Assembly (NCBI RefSeq): GCF_030013595.1
Contig: NZ_CP122768.1
Reading direction: 5' to 3' (one strand)
Length of the DNA stretch: 64,000 nt
Source: Escherichia coli
GTDB taxonomy: Bacteria > Pseudomonadota > Gammaproteobacteria > Enterobacterales > Enterobacteriaceae
Made by a program: the position numbers and the translations under genes. This document shows positions 11,886 to 25,485 of this stretch, in pieces. The notes beneath the pieces were generated by a model. It was not told the origin of the DNA, made no database searches, and saw nothing but the letters and a program-made list of their open reading frames with translations. Every line of letters begins with the position of its first letter. Positions within the stretch are counted from its first letter, which is position 1.

Positions 11886-11894
11886 AATAAATAC

Positions 11895-11917
11895 CCGGCG
11901 GCGTTTTGTCGCCGGGT
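11895..11917. terminator. hairpin between convergent ppsA and fadK (possible bidirectional terminator)
   Basis: cccggcg-gcgttttgt-cgccggg stem-loop between the two stop codons. Confidence 0.55.
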
Positions 11918-11941
11918 TTATGTGATCCCCGAAGATGAAAC

Positions 11942-13588
11942 TTATTCAATCTCTTCACAGACATCCTGAGTTAATCGCCGCATAATATCTTTCCTTAACA
12001 AAAACTTTTGTATTTTACCTGAGGCAGTGCGAGGTAGTTTTTCGATTACCACGATATGTTCAGGATATTTATATTTCGCGACCCGTTTACGGCTAAAAAA
12101 AGTCACCACGTCTTCCAGCGATAATGAATGATGCGGCGCTTTCAGCACGACATAAGCGCATGAGCGTTCACCTAAACGTTCATCGGGCATTGCAATCACA
12201 CAGGCATCGTGAATTTTAGGATGCTGTAATAAAATATCTTCTACTTCACGGCTGCTAATATTTTCGCCGCCGCGGACAATAATATCTTTCTTGCGCCCGG
12301 TTATTTTTATATAGCCAGCCTCATCCATGCGGCAGAGATCGCCGCTGTAATACCAGCCTTCTTCATCCAGCGCACGGGCGGTTAATTCAGGTTCATCAAA
12401 ATACCCCATAAACACATTGGGGCCACGCGAGGCTTCTTCACCTTCGCAACCTGGCGGTAAGGTCTTGCGTGCGTCATCGACCACTTTAATCTCAACTCCT
12501 GCGGCAGCGTAACCATCGGTATGCATAAAGCGCGATAAAGGATCGTCGAGATTCACCACTGCGTGCGGCGAACTTTCTGTGGAACCATAAACACTTAATA
12601 ATTTAATGCCGCGCTGTTGGCATTCACGCGCCACTTTTTTGGGGATTGTGGTCCCGCCGCAAAGAAAGAAGCGCAGCGCTGAAAGGTCAGCGGGTTGTTT
12701 CTCCAGTAAATTCAAAAGATCATAGACAAACGGCGTTGCGCCGAGCATACAGGTGCAACGCTGCTGCTCAAGCAGCGCGAGACACGCATCAGGAGTGAAA
12801 ATATCTAACAACACGCTGCGAGCGCCAATTAAGAATGGTGCCGTTACGCCATGCAGAAAGCCCGTTGCATGACCAAGTGGCGCAGGCATCATAAAGACAT
12901 CCTGCCAGGTCAGATTCAACCGCGCGCAATAAGCCCGCTCACTGGCGAGAATATTGTTATGCGTTAGCATCACGCCCTTTGGCAGACCCTCGGTTCCGGA
13001 GGTAAACAGCACCGCGGCTAATTCATCGCCGTGGACCGTTATCGCCGTGGTCAGAGGAGTATTGTCGGCGATAATCTGACTTAATGAGAGGGAAGAGGTG
13101 GCGGGAGCCAGTTTGTCCACGCCGACAATTTGTTGTAGTTGTAGAAGCTGATTTTGCAGCGGCAGGATTAAATCTACCGGACGCGTTTGTTTAAACAACG
13201 TCGGTGCAAAGAACATTTTTGCCTGACACTTATTGAGTACCCATACCAGTTCTGCTTCCCGCCAGGAAGGCAACAGCGGTACGGAAACCGCACCGATTTT
13301 CAGGCAGGCAAGATAGATAACGGTAAATTCACACCAGCCAGGCAGTTGAAATGCGATACGATCGCCTGATTCAATACCCTTCGCTAACATCCAGTTTGCC
13401 AGACAGCTCGCGGCGTGATCGAGCGCGCTATAGGTGTACGATGCACCATGATTATCGACCACGGCAATTTTGTCTGGCATCGCACGAGCGGTCTGCTGCC
13501 AGTAATCGGCCAGCGAAGCATCGCCCCATAGCCCTTGCTGACGATACGCCGCACGACGTTGTTCGTAAAACGTTAATGTCACTTTCAT
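11942..13588 (-). CDS. fadK: short-chain acyl-CoA synthetase
   Basis: 548-aa ORF (start MKVTLTF inside the 566-aa track ORF) with AMP-binding motifs. Confidence 0.85.
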   Translation of the reverse strand: MKVTLTFYEQRRAAYRQQGLWGDASLADYWQQTARAMPDKIAVVDNHGASYTYSALDHAASCLANWMLAKGIESGDRIAFQLPGWCEFTVIYLACLKIGAVSVPLLPSWREAELVWVLNKCQAKMFFAPTLFKQTRPVDLILPLQNQLLQLQQIVGVDKLAPATSSLSLSQIIADNTPLTTAITVHGDELAAVLFTSGTEGLPKGVMLTHNNILASERAYCARLNLTWQDVFMMPAPLGHATGFLHGVTAPFLIGARSVLLDIFTPDACLALLEQQRCTCMLGATPFVYDLLNLLEKQPADLSALRFFLCGGTTIPKKVARECQQRGIKLLSVYGSTESSPHAVVNLDDPLSRFMHTDGYAAAGVEIKVVDDARKTLPPGCEGEEASRGPNVFMGYFDEPELTARALDEEGWYYSGDLCRMDEAGYIKITGRKKDIIVRGGENISSREVEDILLQHPKIHDACVIAMPDERLGERSCAYVVLKAPHHSLSLEDVVTFFSRKRVAKYKYPEHIVVIEKLPRTASGKIQKFLLRKDIMRRLTQDVCEEIE

Positions 13589-13644
13589 TTTGGACTCTCG
13601 AGACAGAACATCAGGCCCGAGATGCGGGCCTGTGGGATGCATGA

Positions 13645-13938
13645 TTAGCCGTAGCGAAAATCAATACCGAAGGTGCCTGCAGGATATTGCCACTGTTCGA
13701 GAATAGTGTTGCCGCACAGCACCCGACAGGTGCCGCACTCCAGACAACCGGCGGAATCGAAATGAATGTTTCCTGCGTCATCCTGCTTATAAAGTCCGGC
13801 AGGGCAAGCTTTCATTAATTTACGGAATTCATTGATATCGGGATTTGCCGCCAAAATGATATGCGGGTGGCCCTCATCAACATGGAATTTATTGACGCCT
13901 AATTTGATGTCGACGTTAACCGTAGCGTTCTGGCTCAT
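13645..13938 (-). CDS. ydiT: FixX-like ferredoxin
   Basis: 97-aa Cys-rich ORF; 4-bp overlap with ydiS. Confidence 0.85.
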   Translation of the reverse strand: MSQNATVNVDIKLGVNKFHVDEGHPHIILAANPDINEFRKLMKACPAGLYKQDDAGNIHFDSAGCLECGTCRVLCGNTILEQWQYPAGTFGIDFRYG

Positions 13939-15224
13939 AGCGCGGTTGCTCCCTTAATGCCATCTTTCAGCAAGTTGATCAGTCCAATTTTCTTCGCGTG
14001 TCCCATGATCATTTTGCGTACCGGTTGGTTAGGTTTGCCGTCGATGGTGAACATCTCGTTCATGATGTCGGCGACCATTCGTGGGTATTGGCTAAACAGG
14101 CGCGGGTTTTCCATCAGCGCCGGGATCTTGCGGAAATGCTGCATATCGCGCATAACACAACTTTGTTCCAGCTCACGTTTGTATTGCGCCAGACTGCTGG
14201 CGGAGAAATCCGCGCGTTCTTTGGCGGCGATCACCGTTGTGGCGGCAGCCTGAGCCGATGCAATGGCTAAATCCATGCCGCGGACTGTAAAACCCAAATT
14301 CAGGCAGAAGCCTGCGGCGTCACCAACGATCATCACGCCCTCGTTAACCAGTTGCGGCACCATTGCCAGACCGCCTTCCGGCACCATATGCGCGGAATAT
14401 TCAAGCAGTTTGCCGCCGCTGATCAGCGGGCGAATGGCGGGGTGTTGTTTAAAATCTTCCAGCATTTGCGGCACGCTTTTTTGCGCATGGGCGATATCAC
14501 CCAATCCACAAACCAGCCCCAACGATACGGAATCATTGTTGGTATAGAGGAATCCGCCACCCATCAGGCCGTCCGAAGGGGAACCGGCAAACAGCCAGGC
14601 GGCACCTTCCTCGCCCGTAACATTAAAGCGATCGTTGATCTGTTCTGGTGTGAGGCCAATAACCTCTTTAACACCAACAGCGTAATGATGCGGATCGGAA
14701 GCGGGAACCATTCCCAGCGAGCGGCCAAGCATCGAGTTAACGCCATCAGCCAGAATCACCACATTCGCTTCGAGAATATCATCCCCGGCCTGCACGCCAG
14801 TGACCTTGTTTCCTTCACGAACCAGCGCATCGACACGAACGCCCGGGATAAACTGCGCGCCAGCCTGTTCGGCTTGATCCATCAACCACGGGTCCAGACG
14901 ATTACGCAATACGGTATAAGACGCGTGTTGCGGAACATCTGGTTGCTCGCGGTGAAAATCGAGGGTAACGGCACTCTCTTCGGTTAAGAAGGAGATTTTC
15001 TCGCGTGTGACCTTGCGTTCTACCGGCGCTGATGCTGCAAAGCCTGGAATGATCGCTTCAAGTGTGTGGGCATAAAGACGCCCGCCGGTCATGTTTTTAC
15101 ATCCGGCACTGTCGCCGCGTTCTATCACCAGGACATCCAGCCCGGCTCGCGCCATGACCAGTGCGGCAACGCTACCAGCAACGCCCGCACCGACCACAAT
15201 GGCATCAAATTTGTCATCCGACAT
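13935..15224 (-). CDS. ydiS: FixC-like ETF-quinone oxidoreductase flavoprotein
   Basis: 429-aa ORF with N-terminal FAD fold GAGVAGS. Confidence 0.85.
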   Translation of the reverse strand: MSDDKFDAIVVGAGVAGSVAALVMARAGLDVLVIERGDSAGCKNMTGGRLYAHTLEAIIPGFAASAPVERKVTREKISFLTEESAVTLDFHREQPDVPQHASYTVLRNRLDPWLMDQAEQAGAQFIPGVRVDALVREGNKVTGVQAGDDILEANVVILADGVNSMLGRSLGMVPASDPHHYAVGVKEVIGLTPEQINDRFNVTGEEGAAWLFAGSPSDGLMGGGFLYTNNDSVSLGLVCGLGDIAHAQKSVPQMLEDFKQHPAIRPLISGGKLLEYSAHMVPEGGLAMVPQLVNEGVMIVGDAAGFCLNLGFTVRGMDLAIASAQAAATTVIAAKERADFSASSLAQYKRELEQSCVMRDMQHFRKIPALMENPRLFSQYPRMVADIMNEMFTIDGKPNQPVRKMIMGHAKKIGLINLLKDGIKGATAL

Positions 15225-15279
15225 GCGTTATGCTCCCTTCCCGCTGCGTTTACAGCGGGAGATGTGGTTGAAAGGGGAA

Positions 15280-16218
15280 TTAGCGGCTCAACTGGCTAAT
15301 CAGGGCAGGGACGACTTTGTAGATATCGCCCACCAGACCGTAGTCGGCATAGTTGAAGATTGGCGCATTTTTATCTTTATTGATGGCGACAATCACTTTT
15401 GCGCCGTTGCCGCCAACCATATGCTGGATCTGCCCGGAGATCCCCAGCGTCAGGTAGAGATCGGATTTCAGCAACACGCCGGAGACACCGATATAACGTT
15501 CACGCTCCATCCAGTTCTCGCCTTCGGCAATTGGACGTGAACAGCCGACTTCAGCATTCAGCACCGCCGCCAGTTCGTGGACCATTTTCAGGTCATCCTG
15601 CGCTGCCAGACCACGACCGACGCCAACCACACGTTTTGCTTTGCTCAGGTCCACGCTGCTTGCCGCTTTCGCACGGCGTTCGCGACAGAGAATTTCATGA
15701 CGCGGGGCAACATAAGGTACCGTTTCTGTCGGGCACTGATGAGAGGTATCACTGGTGCACGGTTCCTGAACACCGGGCGCAAGGGTAATGATCGCCAGCG
15801 GGCTGTTGATCTTTTCCTGTGCGAACGCTAACCCGCCATACATCCGGTGTTCGGCGCAAATGTGACCATCGACAATATCCACCGCCGTGGCATCGTTCAC
15901 CAGCGCCGCATTCAGTTGCACACTTAACCGTGCTGCCAGAGCTTTACCGCGTTTCGTCGCGGCCAGCAGCAACATAGAAGGGTGTTTATCTTTCAGCAGG
16001 GCAGCAATGCTTTCGGCGTAATTTTCAGTACGTTGCAGCGCATCATTTTGCTCAAGAACATAAATACATTTTGGACCATAAGGCATAACTGCCTGCGCCT
16101 GGTCGGTATTTTGTACAATGGCATACACCTGTTGGCCCCATTGCTGCGCGCCGCTAAACAATTCAGCATAACGTTCAGGATTATCGCTAAAGACCCAGAC
16201 GCTGTTTAATTGACTCAT
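15280..16218 (-). CDS. ydiR: electron transfer flavoprotein alpha subunit (FixB-like)
   Basis: 312-aa ORF recognised as ETF alpha. Confidence 0.85.
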   Translation of the reverse strand: MSQLNSVWVFSDNPERYAELFSGAQQWGQQVYAIVQNTDQAQAVMPYGPKCIYVLEQNDALQRTENYAESIAALLKDKHPSMLLLAATKRGKALAARLSVQLNAALVNDATAVDIVDGHICAEHRMYGGLAFAQEKINSPLAIITLAPGVQEPCTSDTSHQCPTETVPYVAPRHEILCRERRAKAASSVDLSKAKRVVGVGRGLAAQDDLKMVHELAAVLNAEVGCSRPIAEGENWMERERYIGVSGVLLKSDLYLTLGISGQIQHMVGGNGAKVIVAINKDKNAPIFNYADYGLVGDIYKVVPALISQLSR

Positions 16219-16237
16219 CGTTTCTTCTCCGTAGGCT

Positions 16238-17002
16238 TCAGTTCAGGGCTTTCTTCAGATGTTCCGCCAGCTCGGCAATGGCCTCCGGCGAATCGTTATC
16301 GAGAATGATGTGCTTACGTTCTGTTTGCGGCGGTACGCGAATGCTGGTCAGTTCAGCAAGTGGTGCGCTCTGGCTCCAGCCAATATCACTTGCCTGCCAC
16401 TGATTTACCGGTTTTTTACCCGCGCCGAGAATGGCTTTCATCGAAGGAATGCGTGGCACGTTAATATCGGAGGTGACGCAGAGCACGGCTGGAACAGAGA
16501 GTTCAATAACTTCAACATCATCTTCAAGCATGCGTTCAATCACCAGTGTATTGCCCTGACGCTGAATAGCACTCACTGCATTAATCACCGGAAGTTGCAG
16601 AATTTCTCCGACCAGCAAGCCAACCTGCTGGGCATAAAGGTCGCCGGAACCTTCACCAAAGATCAGTAAATCGAAGCCGATCTTTTCAACTGCTGCCGCC
16701 AGCGCCTTTGCGGTATCGAGAGGCAGTGCATGTTCAAGTTGCGCATCCTGCACCAAATACAGGCTATGCGGCCCGCGGGATAGCACGTCTTTACGCACTT
16801 TCGAGTTCTGCAACAATGAGCCGCCAATGGTCAGCGCGGCTATCTCATCGTCATCTGTTGCAATCTGGCTTGCAGCTTCAATGGCATTGAGATCGAACTG
16901 GCTGATTTTGGCGTCGGCATTGTCGAAATTCAGGGTATATTCTGGAGTGACAACAATGTCCTGTTCTTCAGGCACCAGCTTAAAGCAGGTTATTATTTTC
17001 AT
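16238..17002 (-). CDS. ydiQ: electron transfer flavoprotein beta subunit (FixA-like)
   Basis: 254-aa ORF starting MKIITCFKLVPEEQ inside the longer track ORF. Confidence 0.85.
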   Translation of the reverse strand: MKIITCFKLVPEEQDIVVTPEYTLNFDNADAKISQFDLNAIEAASQIATDDDEIAALTIGGSLLQNSKVRKDVLSRGPHSLYLVQDAQLEHALPLDTAKALAAAVEKIGFDLLIFGEGSGDLYAQQVGLLVGEILQLPVINAVSAIQRQGNTLVIERMLEDDVEVIELSVPAVLCVTSDINVPRIPSMKAILGAGKKPVNQWQASDIGWSQSAPLAELTSIRVPPQTERKHIILDNDSPEAIAELAEHLKKALN

Positions 17003-17317
17003 GATTTCTCCTGTGAGTCGCATACGGAACCATCTCCGATGGAAGGTAAAAATGGCCTGAAAATAGTGTGCGATAGCGGTGCGGGGTTTTCGACGGAGCA
17101 AGCTGTTTTCCTTGCCAACAATCTTGCAAAAAAAATGCGATCGCTAAAACAAAAGTGCAATTTGCGGCAATATAGTTATTCCATGACCGTACAATCTTGC
17201 ATTCAGTGTAAATAATCTTGTTTAGCTCTCGCTAAACGCGGTTGTATAACCGCAATACACGCCGTATTTTATCCGGCATATATTGTTTTTGCTTGCTCAT
17301 GGAATAGGGAGGTTATC

Positions 17318-18229
17318 ATGTATCAACGCTGTTTTGATAACGCCAGCGAAACGCTGTTTGTCGCCGGTAAAACGCCACGGCTTTCACGTTTTGCATTTAG
17401 CGATGATCCAAAATGGGAGTCCGGACATCACGTTCATGACAATGAAACCGAGTTAATTTACGTCAAGAAAGGGGTAGCAAGGTTTACCATCGATTCTTCG
17501 TTATATGTCGCGCACGCCGATGACATTGTGGTGATAGAACGTGGCAGGCTGCATGCGGTGGCCTCTGACGTTAACGATCCGGCAACGACGTGTACCTGTG
17601 CGCTGTACGGCTTTCAGTTTCAGGGGGCTGAGGAAAATCAGCTACTGCAACCGCATTCTTGCCCGGTAATTGCCGCAGGGCAGGGAAAAGAAGTTATTAA
17701 AACCTTATTTAATGAGCTAAGTGTGATTTTGCCGCAAAGTAAAAATAGCCAAACATCTTCGTTATGGGACGCATTTGCCTATACGTTAGCAATTCTTTAC
17801 TATGAAAACTTTAAAAATGCTTATCGTTCGGAGCAGGGATATATTAAAAAAGATGTTCTGATAAAAGATATTCTTTTCTATCTGAATAATAACTATCGCG
17901 AAAAAATCACTTTAGAGCAGTTATCGAAAAAGTTTCGTGCCAGCGTCAGTTATATTTGCCATGAATTTACCAAAGAGTATCGCATTTCCCCTATTAACTA
18001 TGTTATTCAACGGCGTATGACGGAAGCGAAATGGTCACTCACTAATACTGAATTATCACAGGCAGAGATCTCCTGGCGTGTGGGTTATGAAAATGTCGAT
18101 CACTTTGCCAAACTGTTTTTGCGCCATGTCGGCTGTTCGCCCAGCGATTACCGCAGGCAATTTAAAAACTGTTTTGCGGAACAAGAAATCTTATCTGAAT
18201 TTCCTCAACCGGTAAGTCTTGCCGGATAA
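17318..18229 (+). CDS. ydiP: AraC-family transcriptional regulator, divergent from ydiQ
   Basis: 303-aa ORF with C-terminal AraC-type HTH. Confidence 0.85.
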   Translation: MYQRCFDNASETLFVAGKTPRLSRFAFSDDPKWESGHHVHDNETELIYVKKGVARFTIDSSLYVAHADDIVVIERGRLHAVASDVNDPATTCTCALYGFQFQGAEENQLLQPHSCPVIAAGQGKEVIKTLFNELSVILPQSKNSQTSSLWDAFAYTLAILYYENFKNAYRSEQGYIKKDVLIKDILFYLNNNYREKITLEQLSKKFRASVSYICHEFTKEYRISPINYVIQRRMTEAKWSLTNTELSQAEISWRVGYENVDHFAKLFLRHVGCSPSDYRRQFKNCFAEQEILSEFPQPVSLAG

Positions 18230-18271
18230 ATCTGGCGGCGCAGTTTGTTAAGAAGCTGCGCCGCCTGCAGA

Positions 18272-19423
18272 TTATTTGTTCTGATAATCTTTCAGGATCT
18301 GCCGACCCGCTACGTAAATCATAATTTCGTCTGTACCGCCGCCGATACGTTCACAACGGACATCACGCCAGAAGCGAGAGACGCGCGCCTCATCGGTATA
18401 GCCCAGACCGCCCATGATTTGAATCGCATCATCAATAACTTCCATTGCGGTACGTGCGCAGTACAGTTTTGCCAGCGCCGCGCTGGTGCGCAGTGACTGA
18501 TGCTGATCGGCTTGCCATGCCACTTTCAGCACCATGTTGCGCATGTTGTCGATCTTAATCGCCATCAGCGCCAGTTTTTCCTGGATCATCTGGTTATGAC
18601 CAATGGGCTTACCAAAAGCGATACGTTGGTTGGCATAGCGGGCGGCATCTTCAAAGGCACACTCGGCAAAGCCGGTGCTGCGCGCGGCGTTGATCAGGCG
18701 CTCCATCTCAAAGTTATACATCACATTGAGGAAACCCATTCCTTCTTCGCCCACCATGTCGCTCTCTTCAACTTCCACGTTGTCGAGATAGACTTCGCAG
18801 GTGCTGAGCATATGCCAGCCGATTTTATGCAGCGGGTTAATCTTAATGCCGGGCTTACTGGAGTCGACCCACCACAGGGTGAAGGCTTTTTTGGGATCTT
18901 TCGGTTCTGGATCGCGCGCCAGCACCAGCATATACGGGTACTCTTTCGCACCGGTAATAAAGGTTTTCTGTCCGTTGATGTAAACCTTGCCGTTTTTACG
19001 CGTGTAAGTGGTGGTGGCGCTGTTGTTATCTGAGCCTGCGCCTGGTTCCGTCAATGCCAGGGCATAGGCGGGATCACCCGTTTCCAGGGTGCTTTCCGCC
19101 GTTTTACGTAGCTGCTCTGCAGAACCGAAACGGCGCATACTGTGAATACATTGACCGTTGGTGATCAAAAATGCCGGGGCACCGCATTTTGACACTTCCA
19201 TCAGCGCCAGCATCTGGGTGACGTAATCCGCAGGGATGCCACCAAATTCTTCCGGCACGCCAAGCATAGAAATGCCGTTATCCGCCAGCGCCCGCATAAA
19301 CTCACGCGGGTATGTCCCGTTTTGATCGCAGGTGCGGAAATACTCTTCCGGGAAGTTGGTCGTAATCAACTCGCGAATACTGGCCAGCAGCAGTTCTTGT
19401 TCTTCAGTTAAAGAAAAATCCAT
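18272..19423 (-). CDS. ydiO: acyl-CoA dehydrogenase family protein
   Basis: 383-aa ORF from MDFSLTEEQ (track ORF has an 18-codon upstream extension). Confidence 0.85.
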   Translation of the reverse strand: MDFSLTEEQELLLASIRELITTNFPEEYFRTCDQNGTYPREFMRALADNGISMLGVPEEFGGIPADYVTQMLALMEVSKCGAPAFLITNGQCIHSMRRFGSAEQLRKTAESTLETGDPAYALALTEPGAGSDNNSATTTYTRKNGKVYINGQKTFITGAKEYPYMLVLARDPEPKDPKKAFTLWWVDSSKPGIKINPLHKIGWHMLSTCEVYLDNVEVEESDMVGEEGMGFLNVMYNFEMERLINAARSTGFAECAFEDAARYANQRIAFGKPIGHNQMIQEKLALMAIKIDNMRNMVLKVAWQADQHQSLRTSAALAKLYCARTAMEVIDDAIQIMGGLGYTDEARVSRFWRDVRCERIGGGTDEIMIYVAGRQILKDYQNK

Positions 19424-19436
19424 CATTATACTCCTG

Positions 19437-21032
19437 TTAATGAGCCGCTTCAGGCAGGACAAAACCCATCGCCGCATCGATAAATAATCTTTCGTCCATC
19501 AGTTTGAGTTCTGGCGAAATCACTGGGGTGAAATCCATTTTGTCGAGAATATCTTTTTGTAAATCGACGCCAGGGGCGATTTCGATTAAATGCAGGCCGT
19601 CTTCTTTCAGCGTGAATACTGCGCGCTCAGTGATATAACGAACATCCAGCCCTCGCTCGAGAGCGATTTTTCCGCTGAAAGTAATTTCCGGTAGTTCCCG
19701 AATAAATTTCTTCACCCGTCCTTCCTGGACGATATTTAATTTGCCGTCGGTAATTTCTGTTTTTAAACTGCCCGCAGTTAATGTGCCGCAGAAAACGATT
19801 TTCTTCGAAGTGGCACTGATATCAATAAATCCACCGGTGCCCATGATTTTACCATTGAATTTATGCACGCCGACGTTACCGTGCTGGTCGACTTCAGCAA
19901 AACTCAAGTAACAAACATCCAGACCGCCACCGTGATAAAAATCAAACTGGGACGTCATATCCAGAATGGCGCGGGTATTCACGTTCGCGCCAAAGGCGAT
20001 CCCCTGTGAAGTAATTCCGCCAATCGGACCTGTTTCTACCGTCAGAATAAAGTCATCAGCACAACCTTCTTCCCGGGCGACCAGGCCAATGCCGTCAGCA
20101 ATACCGACGCCGACATTCCCCACCGCGCCTTTGCGCATTTCGAATAATGCGCGCCGCGCAACTAATTTACGTTGGTTTAGGGGCAGGCTAAGTTTGGTGC
20201 TTTCATCAAGGGTGAAGTCACCAGAAATAAAGCGGTTAACCGGTGCACCGCCATACAGTTGGGTTTGATCCGGATCGACCACCACAATATCCACCAGATA
20301 ACCCGGAATACGGACAGATTTAGGATGCAGCGTGGCTTTCTTAACCATTTTCTGCACCTGCATCATCACAATACCGCCGTTATTGTGCACCGCCTGGGCA
20401 ATAACCAATGCGTCGAGATACATCACCTCATCTTCAAAAGTGGCGTAGCCTTCGCTGTCGCAGGTGGTAGCGCGAATGAAGGCAATATCTGGCGCTATCG
20501 CTTTGTAATAGAGATATTCTTTGTTTTCAAACTCGACCAGTTTAATCAGGTCTTCTTTAGTGACTTCATTCAGTTTGCCGCCTTGCTGGCGTGGATCGAC
20601 AAATGTTCCGATGCCAATATCACTAATAATACCAGGCTGGTGGGCTGCGGCGGCGCGTAAGGTTTGTGTAAGTACACCTTGTGGATAGTTATAAGCAATA
20701 ATTTTATTTTGTTCTGCGAGATCAGAAATACGCGGCGATTGTCCCCAGTGACCGCATAATGCCCATTTCACCAGACCTTCTTGCGCCAGCGGACTAATAC
20801 CGCGATCGGCGCGATCGCCAAGCCCTGTTGGACTAATAATCGATAAATTACGTGGCGTTTGAGTCTGTTTATATTTATCAGCAAGAGCAGTAATTAACGT
20901 GGTGGCTTCCAGAATACCGCCGCCAGCGCCTAACACACAAAGTGTTGCTTCGTCGGGAATATAATTCACCGCTTCCTGTGCCGACAGGACCGGCACTCGT
21001 CCATTAATACGAGGTGGTTTTACAGGTTTCAT
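19437..21032 (-). CDS. ydiF: fused alpha/beta acetate CoA-transferase
   Basis: 531-aa ORF recognised as family-I CoA-transferase. Confidence 0.85.
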   Translation of the reverse strand: MKPVKPPRINGRVPVLSAQEAVNYIPDEATLCVLGAGGGILEATTLITALADKYKQTQTPRNLSIISPTGLGDRADRGISPLAQEGLVKWALCGHWGQSPRISDLAEQNKIIAYNYPQGVLTQTLRAAAAHQPGIISDIGIGTFVDPRQQGGKLNEVTKEDLIKLVEFENKEYLYYKAIAPDIAFIRATTCDSEGYATFEDEVMYLDALVIAQAVHNNGGIVMMQVQKMVKKATLHPKSVRIPGYLVDIVVVDPDQTQLYGGAPVNRFISGDFTLDESTKLSLPLNQRKLVARRALFEMRKGAVGNVGVGIADGIGLVAREEGCADDFILTVETGPIGGITSQGIAFGANVNTRAILDMTSQFDFYHGGGLDVCYLSFAEVDQHGNVGVHKFNGKIMGTGGFIDISATSKKIVFCGTLTAGSLKTEITDGKLNIVQEGRVKKFIRELPEITFSGKIALERGLDVRYITERAVFTLKEDGLHLIEIAPGVDLQKDILDKMDFTPVISPELKLMDERLFIDAAMGFVLPEAAH

Positions 21033-21111
21033 TGTTAATTCCTGATACAGGTGTGATTTTCCCTACGCCAGATGGAGAATTAGCGCACAGAGACTCACGA
21101 AATATTATTGC

Positions 21112-21870
21112 TTATGCCTGATGTAAAATAGTTAATACTGTGCGCAAATCATTTACCGAGATTTGCCCTGGCGCAGAGGCTTTTTTTACCGCACCAAAAG
21201 TTGCCGCCGAGCCAAATACTTCACCAGCCAGACGAGAAATTACGCCAGTTTTTGCCATCGACATCGTGATGATTGGACGATCGGCATACTGCTCCTGCAT
21301 CTCCAGGGTCGCGGCAAGCAACGTCAGCACATCGCTGGTACTTTGCGGCATCAGCGCAATCTTAGGAATATCGGCGTCGAAGGACTGCATTTTGCGCAGA
21401 CGGGCAATGATTTCTTCGGCTTCCGGCGTTTTATGGAAGTCATGGTTGGACATGACAACTTTCACATCATGCGCGTGGGCGTAGGCGACGGTTTCTTTAA
21501 CCTGATCATCGCCGGTAAATAACTCCAGATCGATCATATCAACCAGGCCACTATCGATGGCTGCACGATTGAGTGCAATATATGCCTCGGTGGAAATCGC
21601 CTGCTCGCCGCCTTCTTTGGCACTGCGGAAGGTAAACAGCAGCGGTTTTTCTGGCATGGTTTCACGGAGAATTTTTGCTGCCGCCATGACAGACTCCACA
21701 TTGGAGAGGTCGGCATAGTGGTCCACACGCCATTCCAGAATATCAAAGTCCGCTTCACGATAGGCGAGAGCTTCGGATTTCACGCTGGCGATATCTTTCG
21801 CCATCAGCGAGACGATGATTTTAGGTGCGCCCGTACCAATGACGAGATCTTTTACAGTTACGGTTTTCAT
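21112..21870 (-). CDS. aroD: 3-dehydroquinate dehydratase, type I
   Basis: 252-aa ORF recognised as AroD. Confidence 0.95.
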
Positions 21871-21900
21871 TTTTTACCCTTTCTGCACGCGGTCAGCCTG

Positions 21901-22767
21901 TCAGGCACCGAACCCCATGACCTGTTTAACATATTCCAGAGGGAAATCTTTGCCAGTCCATAACGTGAACTGTTCAGCCCCTTGCCACAACAACATGCCG
22001 TATCCATCAATCGTTTTGCAACCAGCTTGTTGCGCCTGCTGCAATAACTTCGTCATATGCGGGTTATACACGCATTCAGTGACCAGAAGTCCCGGATGTA
22101 ACAGACTGATATCATTAACCAATGATTCATTCTCAAGGGGTTTCATACCCACTTTTGTGCCATTGGTTAAAATGTCGGCGGAAGCCAGGGCTTCAGCAAA
22201 GGCTTGCTGATCGGCGAGATCGGTGACCGTGACGACACAATCGGTGTTTTCGTTAACCCGCTGCGCGAAGGCGAGGGCTTTATCGAAGAACTCATCCCGA
22301 CGGTTAAAGAGTTTAATTTCTTTTAAACCTTCAATTGCCCCCTGCGCGCCAATCGCCGTTGAGGCACCTCCGGCCCCTAACAGCACCATCGTTTTGCCTT
22401 TGATATCAAAACCGCTCTCTTTAATGGCGCGAATATGGCCCGTGCCGTCGGTGTTATAGCCACGCAGATAGCCATCATCATTAACGATGGTGTTGATGGC
22501 ACCCACCAGTTTGGCCGCTGGCGTTAATTCATCAACATATTCACACGCCAGTTGTTTGTTCGGCATTGATACACCAGTTCCGCGCATTTTGAGGGCTTTT
22601 AATCCTTCAATTGCTCCGGGAAAACTATCGTTATCCACTTCAAAGGCCATATAGGTAAATGGCAATCCCGCTTTTTCTAAGGCTTTATTCTGCATTTCAG
22701 GCGATAAACTGTGGCGGATGGGATAGGCCATCAGCCCAATCAATTCGTATTTTGCGGTAACATCCAT
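21901..22767 (-). CDS. ydiB: quinate/shikimate dehydrogenase
   Basis: 288-aa ORF with Rossmann motif GAGGAS. Confidence 0.9.
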
Positions 22768-22778
22768 AATTAACTCCT

Positions 22779-24044
22779 TTAACCTCTATGCTTAATTGTG
22801 TTTAACCGGGTGCTAAATTTACGCTCGCCAAACCGCACATCATTTTCAGGAATAATGAAAACGCGGTAATAGCGGATAAAGACAATAATTGCGGTAATCA
22901 GGGCCAGCAGCGCGAAAGTAAAATCGAGAGCAATGATATATTGCAGGCCGATGTTCGACAGATAACCGGTAATCAGCGGAATAACAAAGTTAGCCAGTCC
23001 ACCCATCATCATATAAATACTGGTGACTTTGGCTTTGCTTTTGGGGAAAAACTCTGACATGACCGAAACGCCGAGCTGTAAAATGCCGCCAGCTGCTGAG
23101 AAACCGATAACAAAGGCTCCGGCATTACACACCAGTGGAGAAGGGTACAGGTAGATAATGGCTGCTGTTATTGTTGCCAGTGCAGAGTTAAATACATTAG
23201 CCCAGATGGGCCGGACCATTTTTTTCAGTAGTGCGGCAAAAATAAAGACACAGACCAACGAGCCCATACTGTAATAAGAGATGGTTTTTAATGCTTCAGC
23301 TTCTGACATACCAGCAAAAGCCATCGCATATTTGGGCATCCACACCACAATCACATAAAAGGTCGAGAATGCGGCTACACCGAACAGTACCGATGAAACA
23401 CCTTCCAGCCAGACTAACGGTTTGCTGTTCATTTGCGGTAATTCATGAGCTACGCTGGCGTCCACCAACTGGCTGGGGAATTTGCTTTTCAACAGCATCA
23501 GTGTGATCAGTACAAACAGAATACCCGGAATAATCAGCCCATAGCCGTACCAGATGTTATTGAGCAACATATAGCTCACCAGCATTGGGTAGAACATTTG
23601 CCCGAATGACACCATCGCTTTAACCAGTATGACCGCCGAACCAGAGGCTTTCGGAAAGCATTCCATGAGCGCGGGGTAGCCACCCGTATCCAGCGCTGAG
23701 TTAGCGATACCTACGCACACTGCCAGACAGTAGGCGAGAGTTAAATTCGGGCAAGCAGGGATACCAAAGAAGAATAGCAGATACATTATTACTGCCATTA
23801 ATATTACCGCCCGACGACCAAACTTATCGGAGATCACACCGAAGAATAAAATACTGATCAATCGCCCCAAACCGATACCGGAAATTAAATAGGCAATGCC
23901 CGCGTTGTCAGTGGAAAACTTTTCTGCCAGAGATGACATATTTTGGGCAAGCGTAATAACACTAATGCCGTGCAGGAAATAGCTGAAGTAAATACAAAGA
24001 ACAGCCAGGATAAATGGCGTGCTGAAAGCCTTATTTTGAGACAT
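22779..24044 (-). CDS. ydiN: MFS transporter
   Basis: 421-aa 12-TM ORF with MFS motif DKFGRR; paralogous to ydiM. Confidence 0.85.
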
Positions 24045-24270
24045 TTTCACAGCTCCTTGCTGAAAGATAATTTCGTTACCGTACGTATTGTTCTCCGACG
24101 GTTTACATAATTACTATACTGAAGATGATTTTCCCTGGGTACATGGCATATAGTTTATGTTTCCAGGAATATTGCATGTCATAGTTTGTTTTTGATCGCG
24201 ATTTTCCTTAGTTAGCGCAGAAAGAGTTATTTATCCGTAAGATCTTGCATGACCTGAAAAGAATATTGCA

Positions 24271-25485
24271 TTACCCACCCGGAGCGACATTTTCCTTTAG
24301 CGAGTGATGCCGCGTTTCTTTGCGGCTGCGTAAGCCGATAAACAGTGCCAGTAAAAAGCCGATGGCAGCGATGGCGGTATCGAACCACATAATATCGGCA
24401 ATACTTCTTTGGGACAGATGAGCCGTAATCAACGGAATGGTAAATGTTGCAATACTGCCCGCACTGTAATAGATCCCTGTAGCTTTACCTTTAGCATAGG
24501 GGAAACGTTCAGCCATTAACGTCAGGCCAATTTGCACAACACCTCCAGCAGAGGTAAAACCAATGACAAAAGCAAATATTATCACCACATAAAATGTGGG
24601 ATGCAGACAGACGGTAAACAGAGCAATAAATGAGATAAAGGTGTACAGCATCAGTAATGTTGTTGGGCGAACGGTATTACGAATGAGTGGAGCGGTAATA
24701 AATACACAAAGCAGCGAACCCACGGTGTAGATACTAAGTAGTTTGATCGACATAGTGTATGACATGCCTGCAACAAATTGTCCGTACTGTGCCAGCCACT
24801 GGCTAACCAGATAAAACGTTGCCATTGAGATATAGCCATATAAGGTATAACTGGCTAAATCGATAATTGAACAGCGATGTTCCGTAGAGCTGGTGGTTTT
24901 CTTTATGACAGGTAAGCGACGACCCGGATGGGGTGGGAACGTACAACGGCATAAAAACAGAGCGTTAATAAACATAATGCCTGCGGCAATCATAAAGGAC
25001 CAACCGAACCACAGTTCAGCCCACACTAACAGGATGATGATTAGCGGTAATAAAAATTGTCCGCTGGAAACAAATGCTTTAATTAAAATATTGGCTGTCC
25101 CCGGTGAGCGTGGAAAAGCTTCCATCAAACTGGGATAGGTGCCTGCATCGAGAAAACTGTTTGCCATTCCCGCCAGAAAGCCAAAAACATAAGCGATAAT
25201 GATGTTATTGGTGTGCAGGATGCCAAAAAAGAAGGCCATATAGCAGCACATCCCGAGCATGATAAAAGGGCGGCGACCAAAGCGATCGGATAATAATCCT
25301 GCAAAAAGCAAGACACTTAATCGACCAATGCCCAGTGATGAGATAACTATCGAGACGCCCGCGGCATTAGTCTGCCAAAGCGTCTCCAGCGAGGCCATAT
25401 TCAGGCTCATCAAAATGACGCCCATACCATGCACCAGGTAATTAAAATACAACCCCAGTGCGGTAGGGTAATAGGGATTTTTCAT
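24271..25485 (-). CDS. ydiM: MFS transporter
   Basis: 404-aa 12-TM ORF with MFS motif DRFGRR. Confidence 0.85.
   Translation of the reverse strand: MKNPYYPTALGLYFNYLVHGMGVILMSLNMASLETLWQTNAAGVSIVISSLGIGRLSVLLFAGLLSDRFGRRPFIMLGMCCYMAFFFGILHTNNIIIAYVFGFLAGMANSFLDAGTYPSLMEAFPRSPGTANILIKAFVSSGQFLLPLIIILLVWAELWFGWSFMIAAGIMFINALFLCRCTFPPHPGRRLPVIKKTTSSTEHRCSIIDLASYTLYGYISMATFYLVSQWLAQYGQFVAGMSYTMSIKLLSIYTVGSLLCVFITAPLIRNTVRPTTLLMLYTFISFIALFTVCLHPTFYVVIIFAFVIGFTSAGGVVQIGLTLMAERFPYAKGKATGIYYSAGSIATFTIPLITAHLSQRSIADIMWFDTAIAAIGFLLALFIGLRSRKETRHHSLKENVAPGG

What the first reader, a model, noticed from the sequence alone, without database searches (positions are those of the whole stretch)
11942..21032. 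ydiQRST-fadK / ydiP / ydiO-ydiF: ETF-linked acyl-CoA cluster
A compact cluster encodes ETF beta/alpha (YdiQ/YdiR), an ETF-quinone oxidoreductase-like flavoprotein (YdiS), a FixX-like ferredoxin (YdiT), a short-chain acyl-CoA synthetase (FadK), an acyl-CoA dehydrogenase (YdiO) and a CoA-transferase (YdiF), with a divergent AraC-type regulator (YdiP) between them. This is consistent with an anaerobic or short-chain fatty-acid beta-oxidation electron-transfer module. The physiological inducer and the role of YdiP are not evident from sequence.
Basis: partly seen in the sequence, partly recalled or inferred. Interest (0 to 1): 0.3.

Follow-up and report, generated by a model that had tools for sequence, protein, structure and literature searches.

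The report
E. coli ydi acyl-CoA/ETF gene cluster
This is the long-known but functionally unresolved E. coli ydiQRST-fadK / ydiP / ydiO-ydiF cluster, and comparison with other bacteria suggests it belongs with the neighbouring quinate/shikimate genes, so it may be a carnitine-like system for reducing shikimate rather than a dedicated fatty-acid pathway.

Summary
Window 11942-21032 holds fadK, ydiT, ydiS, ydiR, ydiQ (- strand), ydiP (+), ydiO and ydiF (-). All are intact, and the stretch matches 5424 of 5426 complete E. coli genomes. The cluster and its "anaerobic beta-oxidation" label date from 2003, so the finding itself is already known.

Three results go beyond that label.
- **Closest relatives:** the nearest characterised paralogues are the reductive carnitine system, CaiA (48%) and FixABCX (45-63%).
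- **Larger unit:** orthologues of ydiN, ydiB and aroD (window 21112-24044) stay clustered with ydiF, ydiO and the ETF genes in four other gene orders. One is in Sutterella wadsworthensis, which is reported to respire shikimate to hydroshikimate.
- **Shared operator:** The tandem ATNTTGCA-N13-ATNTTGYW occurs exactly twice in 64 kb (0.02 expected), upstream of ydiP and upstream of ydiN, and recurs at both places across enterobacterial genera.

My best reading (confidence about 0.5) is a CoA-dependent enoate reductase module for quinate/shikimate, wired to the quinone pool. The fatty-acid reading (about 0.3) keeps experimental support for FadK only. Substrate, direction of electron flow and YdiP binding are all inferred, not shown.

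The parts
11942..13588 (-). fadK (ydiD), acyl-CoA synthetase, 548 aa from the RefSeq start. The ORF could extend to 13642.
   Evidence: The NCBIfam equivalog 'medium-chain fatty-acid--CoA ligase' scores 1084 bits. The next best family is cyclohexanecarboxylate-CoA ligase at 416 bits, below its cutoff. It is 29% identical to CaiC.
13612..13632 (-). GC-rich hairpin in the ydiT-fadK spacer, inside the possible 5' extension of the fadK ORF.
   Evidence: 8-bp stem with 7 G-C pairs. No function was tested.
13645..13938 (-). ydiT, FixX-like ferredoxin.
   Evidence: It is 63% identical to FixX.
13935..15224 (-). ydiS, FixC-like flavoprotein with an ETF-QO ubiquinone-binding domain.
   Evidence: PF21162 scores 38.6 bits against a cutoff of 27.7. 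It is 61% identical to FixC.
15280..16218 (-). ydiR, ETF large (alpha) subunit.
   Evidence: It is 45% identical to FixB. Four of its five best solved relatives, including the top hit, are subunits of electron-bifurcating complexes.
16238..17002 (-). ydiQ, ETF small (beta) subunit.
   Evidence: It is 55% identical to FixA. The best solved relative is CarD of the caffeyl-CoA reductase-Etf complex.
17097..17128 (+). ydiQ-proximal operator candidate. The conserved 11-mer ACAATCTTGCA lies at 17118-17128, with a degenerate partner about 21 bp to its left.
   Evidence: The 11-mer is present in 18 of the 19 other loci scanned, always on the + strand, and site by site in representatives of each genus, always next to a conserved CGAC...TGTTTT block.
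17191..17222 (+). Tandem direct repeat ACAATCTTGCA-N10-ATAATCTTGTT with 21-bp spacing, 96-127 bp upstream of the ydiP ATG. Candidate YdiP (AraC-type) binding site.
   Evidence: The tandem pattern occurs twice in 64 kb against 0.02 expected. It lies at this position in all 37 loci of the YdiP scan that match the pattern.
17245..17250 (+). Candidate -10 element (TATAAC) of the ydiP promoter. The promoter-proximal repeat would overlap the -35 region.
   Evidence: This falls in the conserved block TTGnATAACCGC. TATATA, TATATC or TATACA sits at the same offset in other genera. The inference is from sequence only, and the generic promoter scan found nothing here.
17318..18229 (+). ydiP, AraC-family regulator with a cupin ligand domain and an HTH_18 domain.
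   Evidence: A 45%-identical homologue sits beside the same tandem repeat in the one-operon variant L048.
18229..18273 (.). Strong hairpin between the convergent ydiP and ydiO genes, probably a bidirectional terminator.
   Evidence: -29.2 kcal/mol, z-score -6.2, and 0 of 200 shuffles fold as well.
18272..19423 (-). ydiO, acyl-CoA dehydrogenase / enoyl-CoA reductase.
   Evidence: It is 48% identical to CaiA. The next NCBIfam families after its own equivalog are CaiA and then acryloyl-CoA reductase AcrC. It is 87-99% identical across the intact enterobacterial loci and 85% identical in a Sutterella orthologue.
19437..21032 (-). ydiF, single-chain family I CoA-transferase.
   Evidence: The query matches the solved 'putative enzyme ydiF' sequence (2AHU/2AHV/2AHW) end to end, 1186 bits over residues 1-531.
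21033..21111 (.). aroD-ydiF spacer. It is 79 bp here and about 144 bp in the other E. coli genomes examined, because 65 bp are missing between AATATTTCG direct repeats.
   Evidence: Every listed genome matches in two pieces that span about 65 extra bases.
21112..21870 (-). aroD, type I 3-dehydroquinate dehydratase. I propose it belongs to the module.
   Evidence: Orthologues 65-71% identical lie inside or beside the CoA-transferase/ACAD/ETF operon in L048, L049, L051 and L053. A DHquinase_I gene sits there in L056 too.
21901..22767 (-). ydiB, quinate/shikimate dehydrogenase. I propose it belongs to the module.
   Evidence: Orthologues in L048, L051 and L053 are 75-77% identical to YdiB but only 26-28% identical to AroE.
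22779..24044 (-). ydiN, MFS transporter. I propose it belongs to the module.
   Evidence: Orthologues 63-70% identical head the operon in L048, L051 and L053.
24239..24270 (+). Second tandem repeat, AAGATCTTGCA-N10-AGAATATTGCA, with 21-bp spacing, in the ydiM-ydiN spacer upstream of ydiN.
   Evidence: The same pattern lies upstream of ydiN in 30 of the 37 matching loci of the YdiP scan, always on the + strand.

Best explanation
The eight genes are the known E. coli ydi cluster, but the working unit is eleven structural genes plus a regulator: ydiN-ydiB-aroD-ydiF-ydiO, ydiP and ydiQRST-fadK. I propose that it works like the carnitine (Cai/Fix) system, with a hydroaromatic acid as substrate.

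Proposed steps:
1. YdiN imports quinate or shikimate.
2. YdiB and AroD convert quinate through dehydroquinate and dehydroshikimate to shikimate. Shikimate is a natural alpha,beta-unsaturated carboxylate.
3. FadK makes the first CoA thioester, and YdiF then recycles CoA from product to fresh substrate.
4. YdiO reduces the C1=C2 double bond of the enoyl-CoA.
5. The electrons reach YdiO from the quinone pool through YdiS/YdiT (the ETF-QO-like pair) and YdiQR (the ETF).
6. Hydroshikimate is released, so the compound serves as an anaerobic electron sink.

YdiP, an AraC-type regulator, would bind the 21-bp-spaced ATNTTGCA repeats in front of ydiP/ydiQ and of ydiN, and so control the set as one regulon.

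Shown here: gene identities, paralogy to Cai/Fix, conserved co-localisation in rearranged orders, and the shared conserved repeat. Inferred: the substrate, the direction of electron flow, YdiP binding, and co-transcription of ydiF-ydiO with aroD. The activity of FadK and YdiF on short fatty acids may be a genuine second use.
For: - **Paralogy to a reductive system.** YdiO is 48% identical to CaiA. YdiQ, R, S and T are 55, 45, 61 and 63% identical to FixA, B, C and X. FadK is 29% identical to CaiC.
- **Conserved order in Enterobacterales.** The eight genes keep their order in every intact locus recovered from Escherichia, Citrobacter, Kosakonia, Serratia, Dickeya, Brenneria, Yersinia and others. 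In the six distant loci examined, aroD-, ydiB- and ydiN-sized genes always sit upstream of ydiF, while the fadK flank varies.
- **Co-localisation survives rearrangement.** Outside the Enterobacterales the same orthologues are shuffled but remain together.
  - L048: MFS, CoA-transferase, ACAD, ETF beta, ETF alpha, shikimate dehydrogenase, type I dehydroquinase, FixC, FixX in one operon.
  - L049: the dehydroquinase lies between ETF alpha and FixC, followed by a FadK-like ligase.
  - L056: CoA-transferase, ACAD, ETF beta and alpha, shikimate dehydrogenase, dehydroquinase.
  - Sutterella L051-L054: the ETF-FixCX(-FadK) genes are divergent from MFS, shikimate dehydrogenase, dehydroquinase, CoA-transferase, ACAD.
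  - Identities to the E. coli proteins: YdiN 63-70%, YdiB 75-77% (AroE only 26-28%), AroD 65-71%, YdiF 70-83%, YdiO 77-85%. Locus GC content is 42%, 58% and 50%.
- **Link to a shikimate-respiring species.** The CoA-transferase of L053 is an exact S. wadsworthensis protein. That species is reported to respire shikimate by reducing its enoate group to hydroshikimate.
- **Shared cis element.** The tandem repeat occurs only upstream of ydiP and upstream of ydiN in 64 kb, with 0.02 expected. It recurs at both places in 30 of the 37 matching loci of the YdiP scan, and in the regulatory spacers of L048, L053 and L054.
- **Ligase and transporter hints.** FadK's second-best family is cyclohexanecarboxylate-CoA ligase, and its reported optimum is C6-C8. 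A distant MAG has a PcaK-like aromatic-acid transporter inside the operon.
- **Expression hint.** ydiQ, R, S and T are listed among the significantly differentially expressed genes during a shikimate-overproducing E. coli fermentation.
Against: - No experiment links these E. coli genes to shikimate or quinate.
- FadK acts on C6-C8 fatty acids in vitro, and a fadD fadK double mutant cannot use fatty acids.
- A Salmonella ydiD mutant is reported to be defective in anaerobic butyrate use. I could not read the primary paper.
- Among families other than its own equivalog, YdiF is closest to S. aureus FadX and to 3-oxoacid/acetate CoA-transferases.
- In E. coli, AroD is also the biosynthetic dehydroquinase (general knowledge), so part of the linkage could reflect that role.
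- In Eggerthella lenta, shikimate reduction is assigned to a flavin reductase of a different kind. Sutterella carries many such reductases, and its shikimate enzyme is not named in the text I read.
- No repeat lies directly upstream of ydiF.
- Published work on YdiP concerns cold-shock genes, and I found no ydi-locus genes in the held supplements.
- The transcriptome study had no wild-type control.
- The taxa of L048, L049 and L056 are unknown.
Confidence: 0.5

Rival explanations
1. This is the textbook reading. The cluster supplies the first oxidative step of anaerobic short- and medium-chain fatty-acid beta-oxidation. FadK or YdiF activates butyrate to octanoate. YdiO oxidises the acyl-CoA. 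YdiQR and YdiST pass the electrons to the quinone pool and on to nitrate or another acceptor. FadIJ or FadBA, encoded elsewhere, finish the cycle. On this view the adjacency to aroD-ydiB-ydiN is incidental.
For: - FadK prefers C6-C8 acids in vitro, and a fadD fadK double mutant cannot use fatty acids.
- Salmonella ydiQRSTD/ydiD is reported to be needed for anaerobic butyrate use, and the operon is deleted in S. Typhi.
- Genome comparisons group ydiFO and ydiQRST with fadHIJK as the anaerobic beta-oxidation pathway.
- After its own equivalog, YdiF's best NCBIfam match is the S. aureus fatty-acid protein FadX.
- YdiO's closest solved structures are short- and medium-chain acyl-CoA dehydrogenases.
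Against: - The 2022 review says evidence for YdiQR is lacking, that transcriptomes do not confirm anaerobic induction of fadK, and that no FadR or CRP control is known.
- This reading does not explain why a quinate/shikimate dehydrogenase, a dehydroquinase and an MFS transporter are interleaved with these genes in four other gene orders.
- It does not explain why ydiN shares the operator-like repeat.
- The nearest characterised paralogues work reductively.
- No hydratase or thiolase is encoded in the cluster.
Confidence: 0.3
2. The chemistry is the same but runs in the opposite direction. The module would oxidise reduced alicyclic acids made by other gut microbes, such as hydroshikimate or related hydroxy-cyclohexanecarboxylates, as CoA esters back to shikimate or dehydroshikimate. 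Electrons would go to the quinone pool. The products would be salvaged for aromatic amino-acid synthesis.
For: - The gene set and co-localisation evidence are the same as for the best explanation.
- YdiS carries an ETF-QO ubiquinone-binding domain, and ETF-QO enzymes typically pass electrons to quinone.
- FadK and YdiO have weak, below-cutoff matches to the cyclohexanecarboxylate-CoA ligase and dehydrogenase families.
- AroD feeds the biosynthetic pathway in E. coli (general knowledge).
Against: - CaiA/FixABCX, the closest characterised system, runs reductively.
- S. wadsworthensis, which carries the module, consumes shikimate and accumulates hydroshikimate, and the reduced product does not stimulate growth.
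- Oxidising an acyl-CoA with menaquinone as the acceptor is thermodynamically unfavourable (established bioenergetics; not computed here).
Confidence: 0.1
3. The genes form no single pathway. They would be a loosely related set of largely silent paralogues of the cai/fix genes, kept next to aroD by inherited gene order. On this view the conserved repeats serve some unrelated regulator.
For: - Generic promoter scans find nothing above chance in the region.
- YdiP has been tied to cold-shock genes rather than to its neighbours.
- The review cited says transcriptome studies did not see increased fadK expression under anaerobic conditions.
- Gene order also continues past ydiN, through ydiM and ydiL, in several genera.
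Against: - YdiO and YdiF are 85-99% identical across the enterobacterial genera sampled, and 85% and 83% identical in a Sutterella locus. That indicates strong purifying selection and transfer of the module as a unit.
- Co-localisation survives four independent rearrangements in genomes whose GC content differs widely.
- The repeat travels with the module and with a YdiP homologue.
Confidence: 0.07

Closest known systems
E. coli carnitine respiration system caiTABCDE / fixABCX
   Same: It has a homologous acyl-CoA dehydrogenase-type reductase (CaiA and YdiO, 48% identical). It has a homologous ETF plus FixC/FixX set (45-63% identical) and a homologous CoA ligase (29% identical). The logic is also shared: a ligase primes, a transferase recycles CoA, a dehydratase makes the enoyl group, and a reductase consumes electrons.
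   Different: YdiF is a family I CoA-transferase, whereas CaiB is family III. There is no crotonase-type CaiD, and AroD, an unrelated dehydratase that acts on the free acid, would fill that logical slot. The transporter is an MFS protein instead of the antiporter CaiT. The regulator is AraC-type instead of CaiF. The substrate is unknown.
Caffeate respiration CarABCDE of Acetobacterium woodii, and the Clostridium propionicum acryloyl-CoA reductase with propionate CoA-transferase
   Same: All combine a CoA-transferase or ligase, an ACAD-type enoyl-CoA reductase and an ETF acting on a plant-derived or small enoate. CarD is YdiQ's best solved relative, and CarC and CarE are also matched. AcrC is YdiO's third-best NCBIfam family.
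   Different: Those ETFs are electron-bifurcating and carry the DGDTAQVG motif, which YdiQ lacks. They also have no FixC/FixX-like link to quinone.
Shikimate-induced flavin reductase of Eggerthella lenta (Little et al., bioRxiv 10.1101/2022.12.26.521950)
   Same: The net reaction I propose is the same: shikimate to hydroshikimate as a respiratory electron sink in a gut bacterium.
   Different: It is a single flavin reductase acting on the free acid. It belongs to the fumarate/urocanate reductase kind and does not use CoA.
Fatty-acid beta-oxidation genes fadD, fadE, fadBA and fadIJ
   Same: Both include an acyl-CoA synthetase and an acyl-CoA dehydrogenase. FadK can replace FadD anaerobically.
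   Different: The ydi cluster encodes no hydratase, dehydrogenase or thiolase, and no FadR control is known. FadE is a much larger protein that is not known to need an ETF in E. coli.
Anaerobic cyclohexanecarboxylate pathway (AliA ligase and AliB dehydrogenase; bad-ali genes)
   Same: Both activate an alicyclic C7 acid to a CoA ester, which is then handled by an ACAD-family enzyme. FadK and YdiO give below-cutoff matches to these families.
   Different: The matches fall well below the family cutoffs (416 against 792 bits, and 141-186 against 575-650 bits). That pathway is oxidative and continues to ring cleavage, for which the ydi cluster has no genes.

Membership tests
E. coli ydiQRST-fadK / ydiP / ydiFO locus | Near-identical sequence and the same gene order as the annotated E. 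coli genes | tested here: met
   The stretch is 100% identical over 9091 bp to strain HCP5S3_I2, 5424 of 5426 genomes match, and RefSeq names all eight genes.
Cai/Fix-type CoA-dependent enoyl-CoA reductase system | CaiA-like acyl-CoA dehydrogenase-family reductase | tested here: met
   YdiO is 48% identical to CaiA over 382 aa. The CaiA NCBIfam model scores 452 bits against a cutoff of 540, so YdiO is a paralogue and not CaiA itself.
Cai/Fix-type CoA-dependent enoyl-CoA reductase system | FixABCX-like ETF, ETF-QO-like flavoprotein and ferredoxin | tested here: met
   Identities to FixA, B, C and X are 55, 45, 61 and 63%. YdiS also carries the ETFQO_UQ-bd domain.
Cai/Fix-type CoA-dependent enoyl-CoA reductase system | Family III CoA-transferase (CaiB) and crotonase-type dehydratase (CaiD) | tested here: not met
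   YdiF is family I (PF01144) and gives no BLAST hit to CaiB. Nothing in the cluster hits CaiD.
Cai/Fix-type CoA-dependent enoyl-CoA reductase system | Net reduction of an enoyl-CoA used as an anaerobic electron sink | not testable with these tools
   This needs enzyme or physiological assays. The only support is indirect: S. wadsworthensis, which carries the orthologous module, reduces shikimate.
Fatty-acid beta-oxidation pathway | Acyl-CoA synthetase and acyl-CoA dehydrogenase | tested here: met
   FadK and YdiO have the expected domains. FadK's activity on C6-C8 acids is reported in the literature.
Fatty-acid beta-oxidation pathway | Enoyl-CoA hydratase, 3-hydroxyacyl-CoA dehydrogenase and thiolase in the same unit; FadR control | tested here: not met
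   None of the genes annotated between fadK and ydiN has such a product or domain. The review reports no evidence of FadR or CRP regulation.
Electron-bifurcating ETF | Small-subunit motif DGDTAQVG at the second FAD site | tested here: not met
   YdiQ has GDLYAQQVG where CarD, LctB and C. difficile EtfB have DGDTAQVG. Canonical ETFs have DNDMNATG or DDDCNQTG. YdiQ matches neither type.
Electron-bifurcating ETF | Closer in sequence to bifurcating than to canonical ETFs | tested here: inconclusive
   The best solved relatives are subunits of bifurcating complexes: 5OL2, 7QH2 and 6FAH, at 134-122 bits for YdiR and 88-62 bits for YdiQ. Canonical ETFs score 108 and 55-54 bits. The margins are small.
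AraC/XylS-family regulator with direct-repeat operator | C-terminal double HTH plus an N-terminal ligand domain | tested here: met
   HTH_18 scores 74 bits, and the Cupin_2 and AraC_binding domains are also present.
AraC/XylS-family regulator with direct-repeat operator | Tandem direct repeats about 21 bp apart next to the regulated promoters | tested here: met
   The repeats lie at 17191-17222 and 24239-24270. Two occurrences were found against 0.02 expected, and they are conserved across genera.
AraC/XylS-family regulator with direct-repeat operator | The regulator binds those repeats and responds to a ligand | not testable with these tools
   This needs EMSA, footprinting or reporter assays. 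No ydi-locus gene names appear in the held supplements of the YdiP ChIP-seq paper.

The most novel reading that the evidence does not exclude
Escherichia, Salmonella and many other Enterobacterales, together with gut Sutterella, would carry a cytoplasmic, CoA-dependent respiration system for quinate and shikimate. Its genes would be ydiN-ydiB-aroD-ydiF-ydiO and ydiQRST-fadK, controlled by YdiP. The system would reduce the ring double bond of shikimoyl-CoA through a CaiA-like reductase fed by an ETF/FixCX-like chain. That would be a second, enzymatically unrelated route to the hydroshikimate reaction recently assigned to flavin reductases. It would also give a physiological function to about ten E. 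coli y-genes.
Probability: 0.4. Interest if true: 0.7.

Novelty: already known. Interest (0 to 1): 0.45.

Why it matters
The genes are in every textbook E. coli strain and are used in engineered reverse beta-oxidation. They have also been linked to Salmonella gut disease. Even so, their natural substrate, inducer and direction of electron flow have never been settled.

If the module really handles quinate and shikimate, it would explain several things:
- why a second shikimate dehydrogenase (YdiB) and the transporter YdiN exist;
- why aroD sits where it does;
- how common facultative gut bacteria might use abundant plant-derived hydroaromatic acids as electron sinks.

The conserved repeat gives a concrete handle for testing what YdiP senses.

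Tried and rejected
- **Generic promoter and terminator scan of 11800-21200.** Counts did not exceed shuffled controls, and nothing was called in the ydiQ-ydiP spacer. The promoter elements I name are therefore inferred from conservation only.
- **Rfam scan of 11500-24600.** There were no matches, so no known riboswitch or sRNA explains the long, variable ydiQ leader.
- **Repeat directly upstream of ydiF.** None was found in E. coli. Only one weak, reversed look-alike was seen, in Brenneria, so separate control of ydiF-ydiO by YdiP is unsupported.
- **Bifurcating-ETF signature in YdiQ.** It matches neither the bifurcating nor the canonical motif. I therefore make no claim about bifurcation.
- **YdiP ChIP-seq targets.** The held supplements of PMC9283627 do not mention the ydi-locus genes I searched for: ydiQ, ydiN, ydiO, ydiF, aroD and ydiB.
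- **Primary Salmonella butyrate paper (Bronner 2018).** It is not held and is cited second-hand only.
- **YdiP homologue in the Sutterella loci.** None lies within 21 kb, although the repeat is present there.
- **More distant YdiO homologues (62-69% identical).** These occur in Desulfovibrio, in an E. albertii island and in Pectobacteriaceae. They sit with a family III CoA-transferase, an MFS transporter and ETF genes, and in some cases a metallo-beta-lactamase-fold gene, but with no shikimate genes. I treat them as sister modules with other substrates, not as evidence about this one.
- **A 74%-identical homologue.** It stands alone with no partner genes and is uninformative.
- **Literature searches linking ydi genes to shikimate reduction.** They found nothing. 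The library holds mainly open-access papers and preprints, so this is not proof of absence.

Full report
**1. Observation**

The window is E. coli chromosome. The 9,091 bases at 11942-21032 match 5424 of 5426 complete E. coli genomes, and 5346 of them cover at least 80% of the stretch. Strain HCP5S3_I2 is 100% identical over it.

With RefSeq start sites the window coordinates are:

| Gene | Coordinates | Strand |
|---|---|---|
| fadK | 11942-13588 | - |
| ydiT | 13645-13938 | - |
| ydiS | 13935-15224 | - |
| ydiR | 15280-16218 | - |
| ydiQ | 16238-17002 | - |
| ydiP | 17318-18229 | + |
| ydiO | 18272-19423 | - |
| ydiF | 19437-21032 | - |

All eight start with ATG and have no internal stop codons. 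Pfam confirms every domain assignment, including an ETF-QO ubiquinone-binding domain in YdiS. A strong hairpin separates the convergent ydiP and ydiO genes (-29.2 kcal/mol, z-score -6.2).

**2. What the literature says**

- **Origin of the beta-oxidation label.** It comes from Campbell et al. 2003, as cited.
- **A critical review.** A 2022 review states that YdiQR were proposed only because they lie near fadK. It adds that "experimental evidence is lacking", that transcriptomes do not confirm anaerobic induction of fadK, and that no FadR or CRP control is known.
- **FadK.** It is most active on C6-C8 acids, and only the fadD fadK double mutant loses growth on fatty acids.
- **Salmonella.** ydiQRSTD/ydiD is reported to be needed for anaerobic butyrate use, and the operon is deleted in S. 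Typhi. I could not read the primary paper.
- **YdiO.** It is cited as a typical poorly evidenced y-gene.
- **YdiP.** The only study of it ties it to cold-shock genes and renames it CsiP.

**3. Closest relatives**

Within E. coli itself the nearest characterised homologues are the carnitine system.

| ydi protein | Cai/Fix paralogue | Identity |
|---|---|---|
| YdiO | CaiA (crotonobetainyl-CoA reductase) | 48% |
| YdiQ | FixA | 55% |
| YdiR | FixB | 45% |
| YdiS | FixC | 61% |
| YdiT | FixX | 63% |
| FadK | CaiC | 29% |

- **YdiF.** It has no counterpart in that system. It is a family I CoA-transferase, and the query matches the solved YdiF sequence (2AHU) end to end.
- **YdiO.** After its own equivalog, its next NCBIfam families are CaiA and then acryloyl-CoA reductase.
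- **FadK.** Its second-best family is cyclohexanecarboxylate-CoA ligase, ahead of long-chain fatty-acid ligases but well below its cutoff.
- **ETF subunits.** They are slightly closer to subunits of bifurcating complexes (5OL2, 7QH2, 6FAH) than to canonical ETFs. However, YdiQ has GDLYAQQVG where bifurcating ETFs have DGDTAQVG, and it does not match the canonical motif either. I therefore make no claim about bifurcation.

**4. The unit is larger than reported**

A scan of one genome per species with YdiP returned 40 loci. The eight-gene order is identical wherever the contig is long enough and the genes are intact. This holds in Escherichia, Citrobacter, Kosakonia, Serratia, Symbiopectobacterium, Brenneria, Dickeya, Prodigiosinella, Yersinia and an Enterobacterales MAG.

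YdiO (87-99% identical) and YdiF (85-98%) are far better conserved than YdiQRST, FadK and YdiP, which range from 58% to 100%.

In all six distant loci examined, genes of 251-257, 287-288 and 411-422 aa lie directly upstream of ydiF on the same strand. These match aroD, ydiB and ydiN in size. The fadK flank differs between genera. On its own, this could simply be inherited gene order.

The decisive evidence comes from contigs outside the Enterobacterales that carry YdiO orthologues 77-85% identical. They show four further gene orders.

| Locus | Gene order |
|---|---|
| L048 | MFS, CoA-transferase, ACAD, ETF beta, ETF alpha, shikimate dehydrogenase, type I dehydroquinase, FixC, FixX, HAD hydrolase; a YdiP homologue is divergent |
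| L049 | MFS, CoA-transferase, ACAD, ETF beta, ETF alpha, dehydroquinase, FixC, FixX, FadK-like ligase |
| L056 | AraC, two MFS, CoA-transferase, ACAD, ETF beta, ETF alpha, shikimate dehydrogenase, dehydroquinase, then an ApbA-type reductase and a MaoC dehydratase |
| L051-L054 (Sutterella) | ETF beta, ETF alpha, FixC, FixX (plus FadK in L053/L054), divergent from MFS, shikimate dehydrogenase, dehydroquinase, CoA-transferase, ACAD |

These genes are true orthologues of the E. coli genes:

| E. coli protein | Identity of orthologues |
|---|---|
| YdiN | 63-70% |
| YdiB | 75-77% (only 26-28% to AroE) |
| AroD | 65-71% |
| YdiF | 70-83% |
| YdiO | 77-85% |

Locus GC content is 42%, 58% and 50%. 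Co-localisation that survives this many rearrangements in unrelated genomes is the classic signature of one pathway.

More distant YdiO homologues (62-69% identical) sit with a family III CoA-transferase, an MFS transporter, ETF genes and sometimes a metallo-beta-lactamase-fold gene. No shikimate genes are present there. They look like sister modules that use other substrates.

**5. The AraC-type repeats**

- **Sites found.** ACAATCTTGCA occurs at 17118 and again at 17191. ATAATCTTGTT follows at 17212, exactly 21 bp after the second copy.
- **Background rate.** The single-site pattern occurs 5 times in 64 kb against 1.2 expected, and 3 of the 5 lie in this spacer.
- **Conservation.** All three sites keep their strand across the enterobacterial genera checked, and the proximal pair keeps its exact 21-bp spacing. 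Meanwhile the spacer length varies from 315 to 911 bp.
- **Promoter context.** The pair lies a fixed distance upstream of a conserved -10-like element (TATAAC at 17245-17250), so the proximal repeat would overlap the -35 region. That is the usual AraC-family arrangement (inference).
- **Specificity of the tandem pattern.** ATNTTGCA-N13-ATNTTGYW occurs exactly twice in the window, with 0.02 expected. One copy is at 17194-17222. The other is at 24242-24270, in the spacer upstream of ydiN.
- **Recurrence in other loci.** 37 of the 40 loci from the YdiP scan match the pattern. All 37 have it upstream of ydiP, and 30 also have it upstream of ydiN, always on the + strand.
- **Travel with the module.** The pattern also lies in the regulatory spacers of L048, L053 and L054. 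In L048 it sits next to a 45%-identical YdiP homologue.

This links ydiN-ydiB-aroD(-ydiF-ydiO) and ydiP/ydiQRST-fadK as one probable regulon. That YdiP is the protein that binds the repeats is an inference.

**6. A link to a known phenotype**

The CoA-transferase encoded in L053 is an exact protein of Sutterella wadsworthensis. Little et al. (bioRxiv 10.1101/2022.12.26.521950) report the following:
- S. wadsworthensis and Eggerthella lenta use shikimate as a respiratory electron acceptor.
- They reduce its enoate group to hydroshikimate.
- Formate serves as the electron donor.

The transcript-based enzyme assignment in that paper, a flavin reductase, was made for E. lenta. No Sutterella enzyme is named in the text I read, and E. 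coli was not tested.

Separately, ydiQ, R, S and T are listed among the significantly differentially expressed genes during fermentation of a shikimate-overproducing E. coli strain. That study had no wild-type control.

**7. Proposed mechanism**

By analogy with Cai/Fix, I propose these steps:
1. YdiN imports quinate or shikimate.
2. YdiB and AroD funnel quinate through dehydroquinate and dehydroshikimate to shikimate, which is an alpha,beta-unsaturated carboxylate.
3. FadK primes the cycle by making the first CoA thioester, and YdiF then recycles CoA.
4. YdiO reduces the enoyl-CoA with electrons delivered from the quinone pool through YdiST and YdiQR.
5. Hydroshikimate leaves the cell.

The gene identities, the paralogy, the clustering and the shared repeat are shown. 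The substrate, the direction of electron flow, YdiP binding and co-transcription of ydiF-ydiO with aroD are inferred. I put this reading at about 0.5.

The standard fatty-acid reading stays at about 0.3, because the fatty-acid activities and phenotypes of FadK are real. The two readings need not exclude each other. A reverse, oxidative salvage role (about 0.1) and "no common pathway" (about 0.07) are less likely.

**8. Novelty and verdict**

The following are not in any paper I could search, although that library is limited to open-access papers and preprints:
- the extension of the unit to ydiN-ydiB-aroD;
- the conserved tandem repeat shared by the two promoter regions;
- the shikimate/quinate hypothesis.

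The interest is moderate. The locus itself is ordinary, but the analysis turns an old open question, what these y-genes do, into a few direct experiments.

Noticed in passing
window 21033-21111 (junction near 21093-21101): The aroD-ydiF spacer is 79 bp here. It is about 144 bp in every E. coli genome listed, including the strain that is otherwise 100% identical over the finding. The missing 65 bp are flanked by the direct repeat AATATTTCG and contain a GC-rich hairpin (GGCGGG...CCCCCGCC). Losing them could increase read-through from aroD into ydiF-ydiO.
   Followed up: partly
window 24271-25968 compared with L001 19769-20749: The closest strain (HCP5S3_I2) has an IS5-like ISKpn26 element between ydiM and ydiL. 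The window does not. So the window comes from a different, closely related strain.
   Followed up: partly
loci L003-L042: Conservation is very uneven within the cluster. YdiO (87-99%) and YdiF (85-98%) are as conserved as housekeeping proteins. YdiQRST, FadK and YdiP fall to 58-70% in the same genomes.
   Followed up: partly
L024 565-4071; L057 5715-11788; L047 4504-15054: A second, paralogous module is present in several genomes. It comprises an AraC regulator, an MFS transporter and a 388-401 aa ACAD, and in some loci also a YdiO-like ACAD (68% identical), ETF beta and alpha, and a desulfoferrodoxin-domain gene. It lies just beyond fadK in Serratia and Pectobacteriaceae, and forms a separate island in E. 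albertii. Its substrate is unknown.
   Followed up: partly
L043 7271-17537 (Desulfovibrio desulfuricans); L050 1181-17232: These clusters hold a family III CoA-transferase, an MFS transporter, a YdiO-like ACAD (63-68% identical), ETF, FixC/FixX, a metallo-beta-lactamase-fold protein, an acyl-CoA ligase and a chemoreceptor. They look like a related CoA-dependent redox module for another, unknown substrate.
   Followed up: no
L036 4335-5720: In a distant Enterobacterales MAG, an aromatic-acid/H+ symporter is inserted between ydiT and fadK inside the operon. Its best match is the 4-hydroxybenzoate transporter PcaK, below the family cutoff.
   Followed up: partly
window 13612-13632 (- strand): A strong GC hairpin lies between ydiT and the RefSeq start of fadK, inside the alternative 566-aa extension of the fadK ORF. 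This favours the shorter start and hints at a processing or attenuation site within the operon.
   Followed up: no
window 17003-17117, and the equivalent region in L025, L026 and L029: The distance from the ydiQ-proximal repeat to the ydiQ start codon varies from 99 to 448 bases between genera, while the block next to the repeat stays conserved. This implies a long and variable ydiQ leader. No Rfam family matches it.
   Followed up: partly
window about 17322-17368 (5' end of ydiP): A published in vitro FlhDC binding peak (genomic SELEX, PMC9962212, listed as 'ydiO > ydiP > ydiQ') gives a sequence that is the reverse complement of the first codons of ydiP.
   Followed up: no
L028 17468-18370; L024 17510-18409; L026 17934-18935: In Yersinia, Serratia and Dickeya, a LysR-type regulator gene lies divergent from ydiN, just beyond the ydiN-upstream tandem repeat. 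E. coli lacks this gene but keeps the repeat, which abuts the ydiM stop codon.
   Followed up: partly
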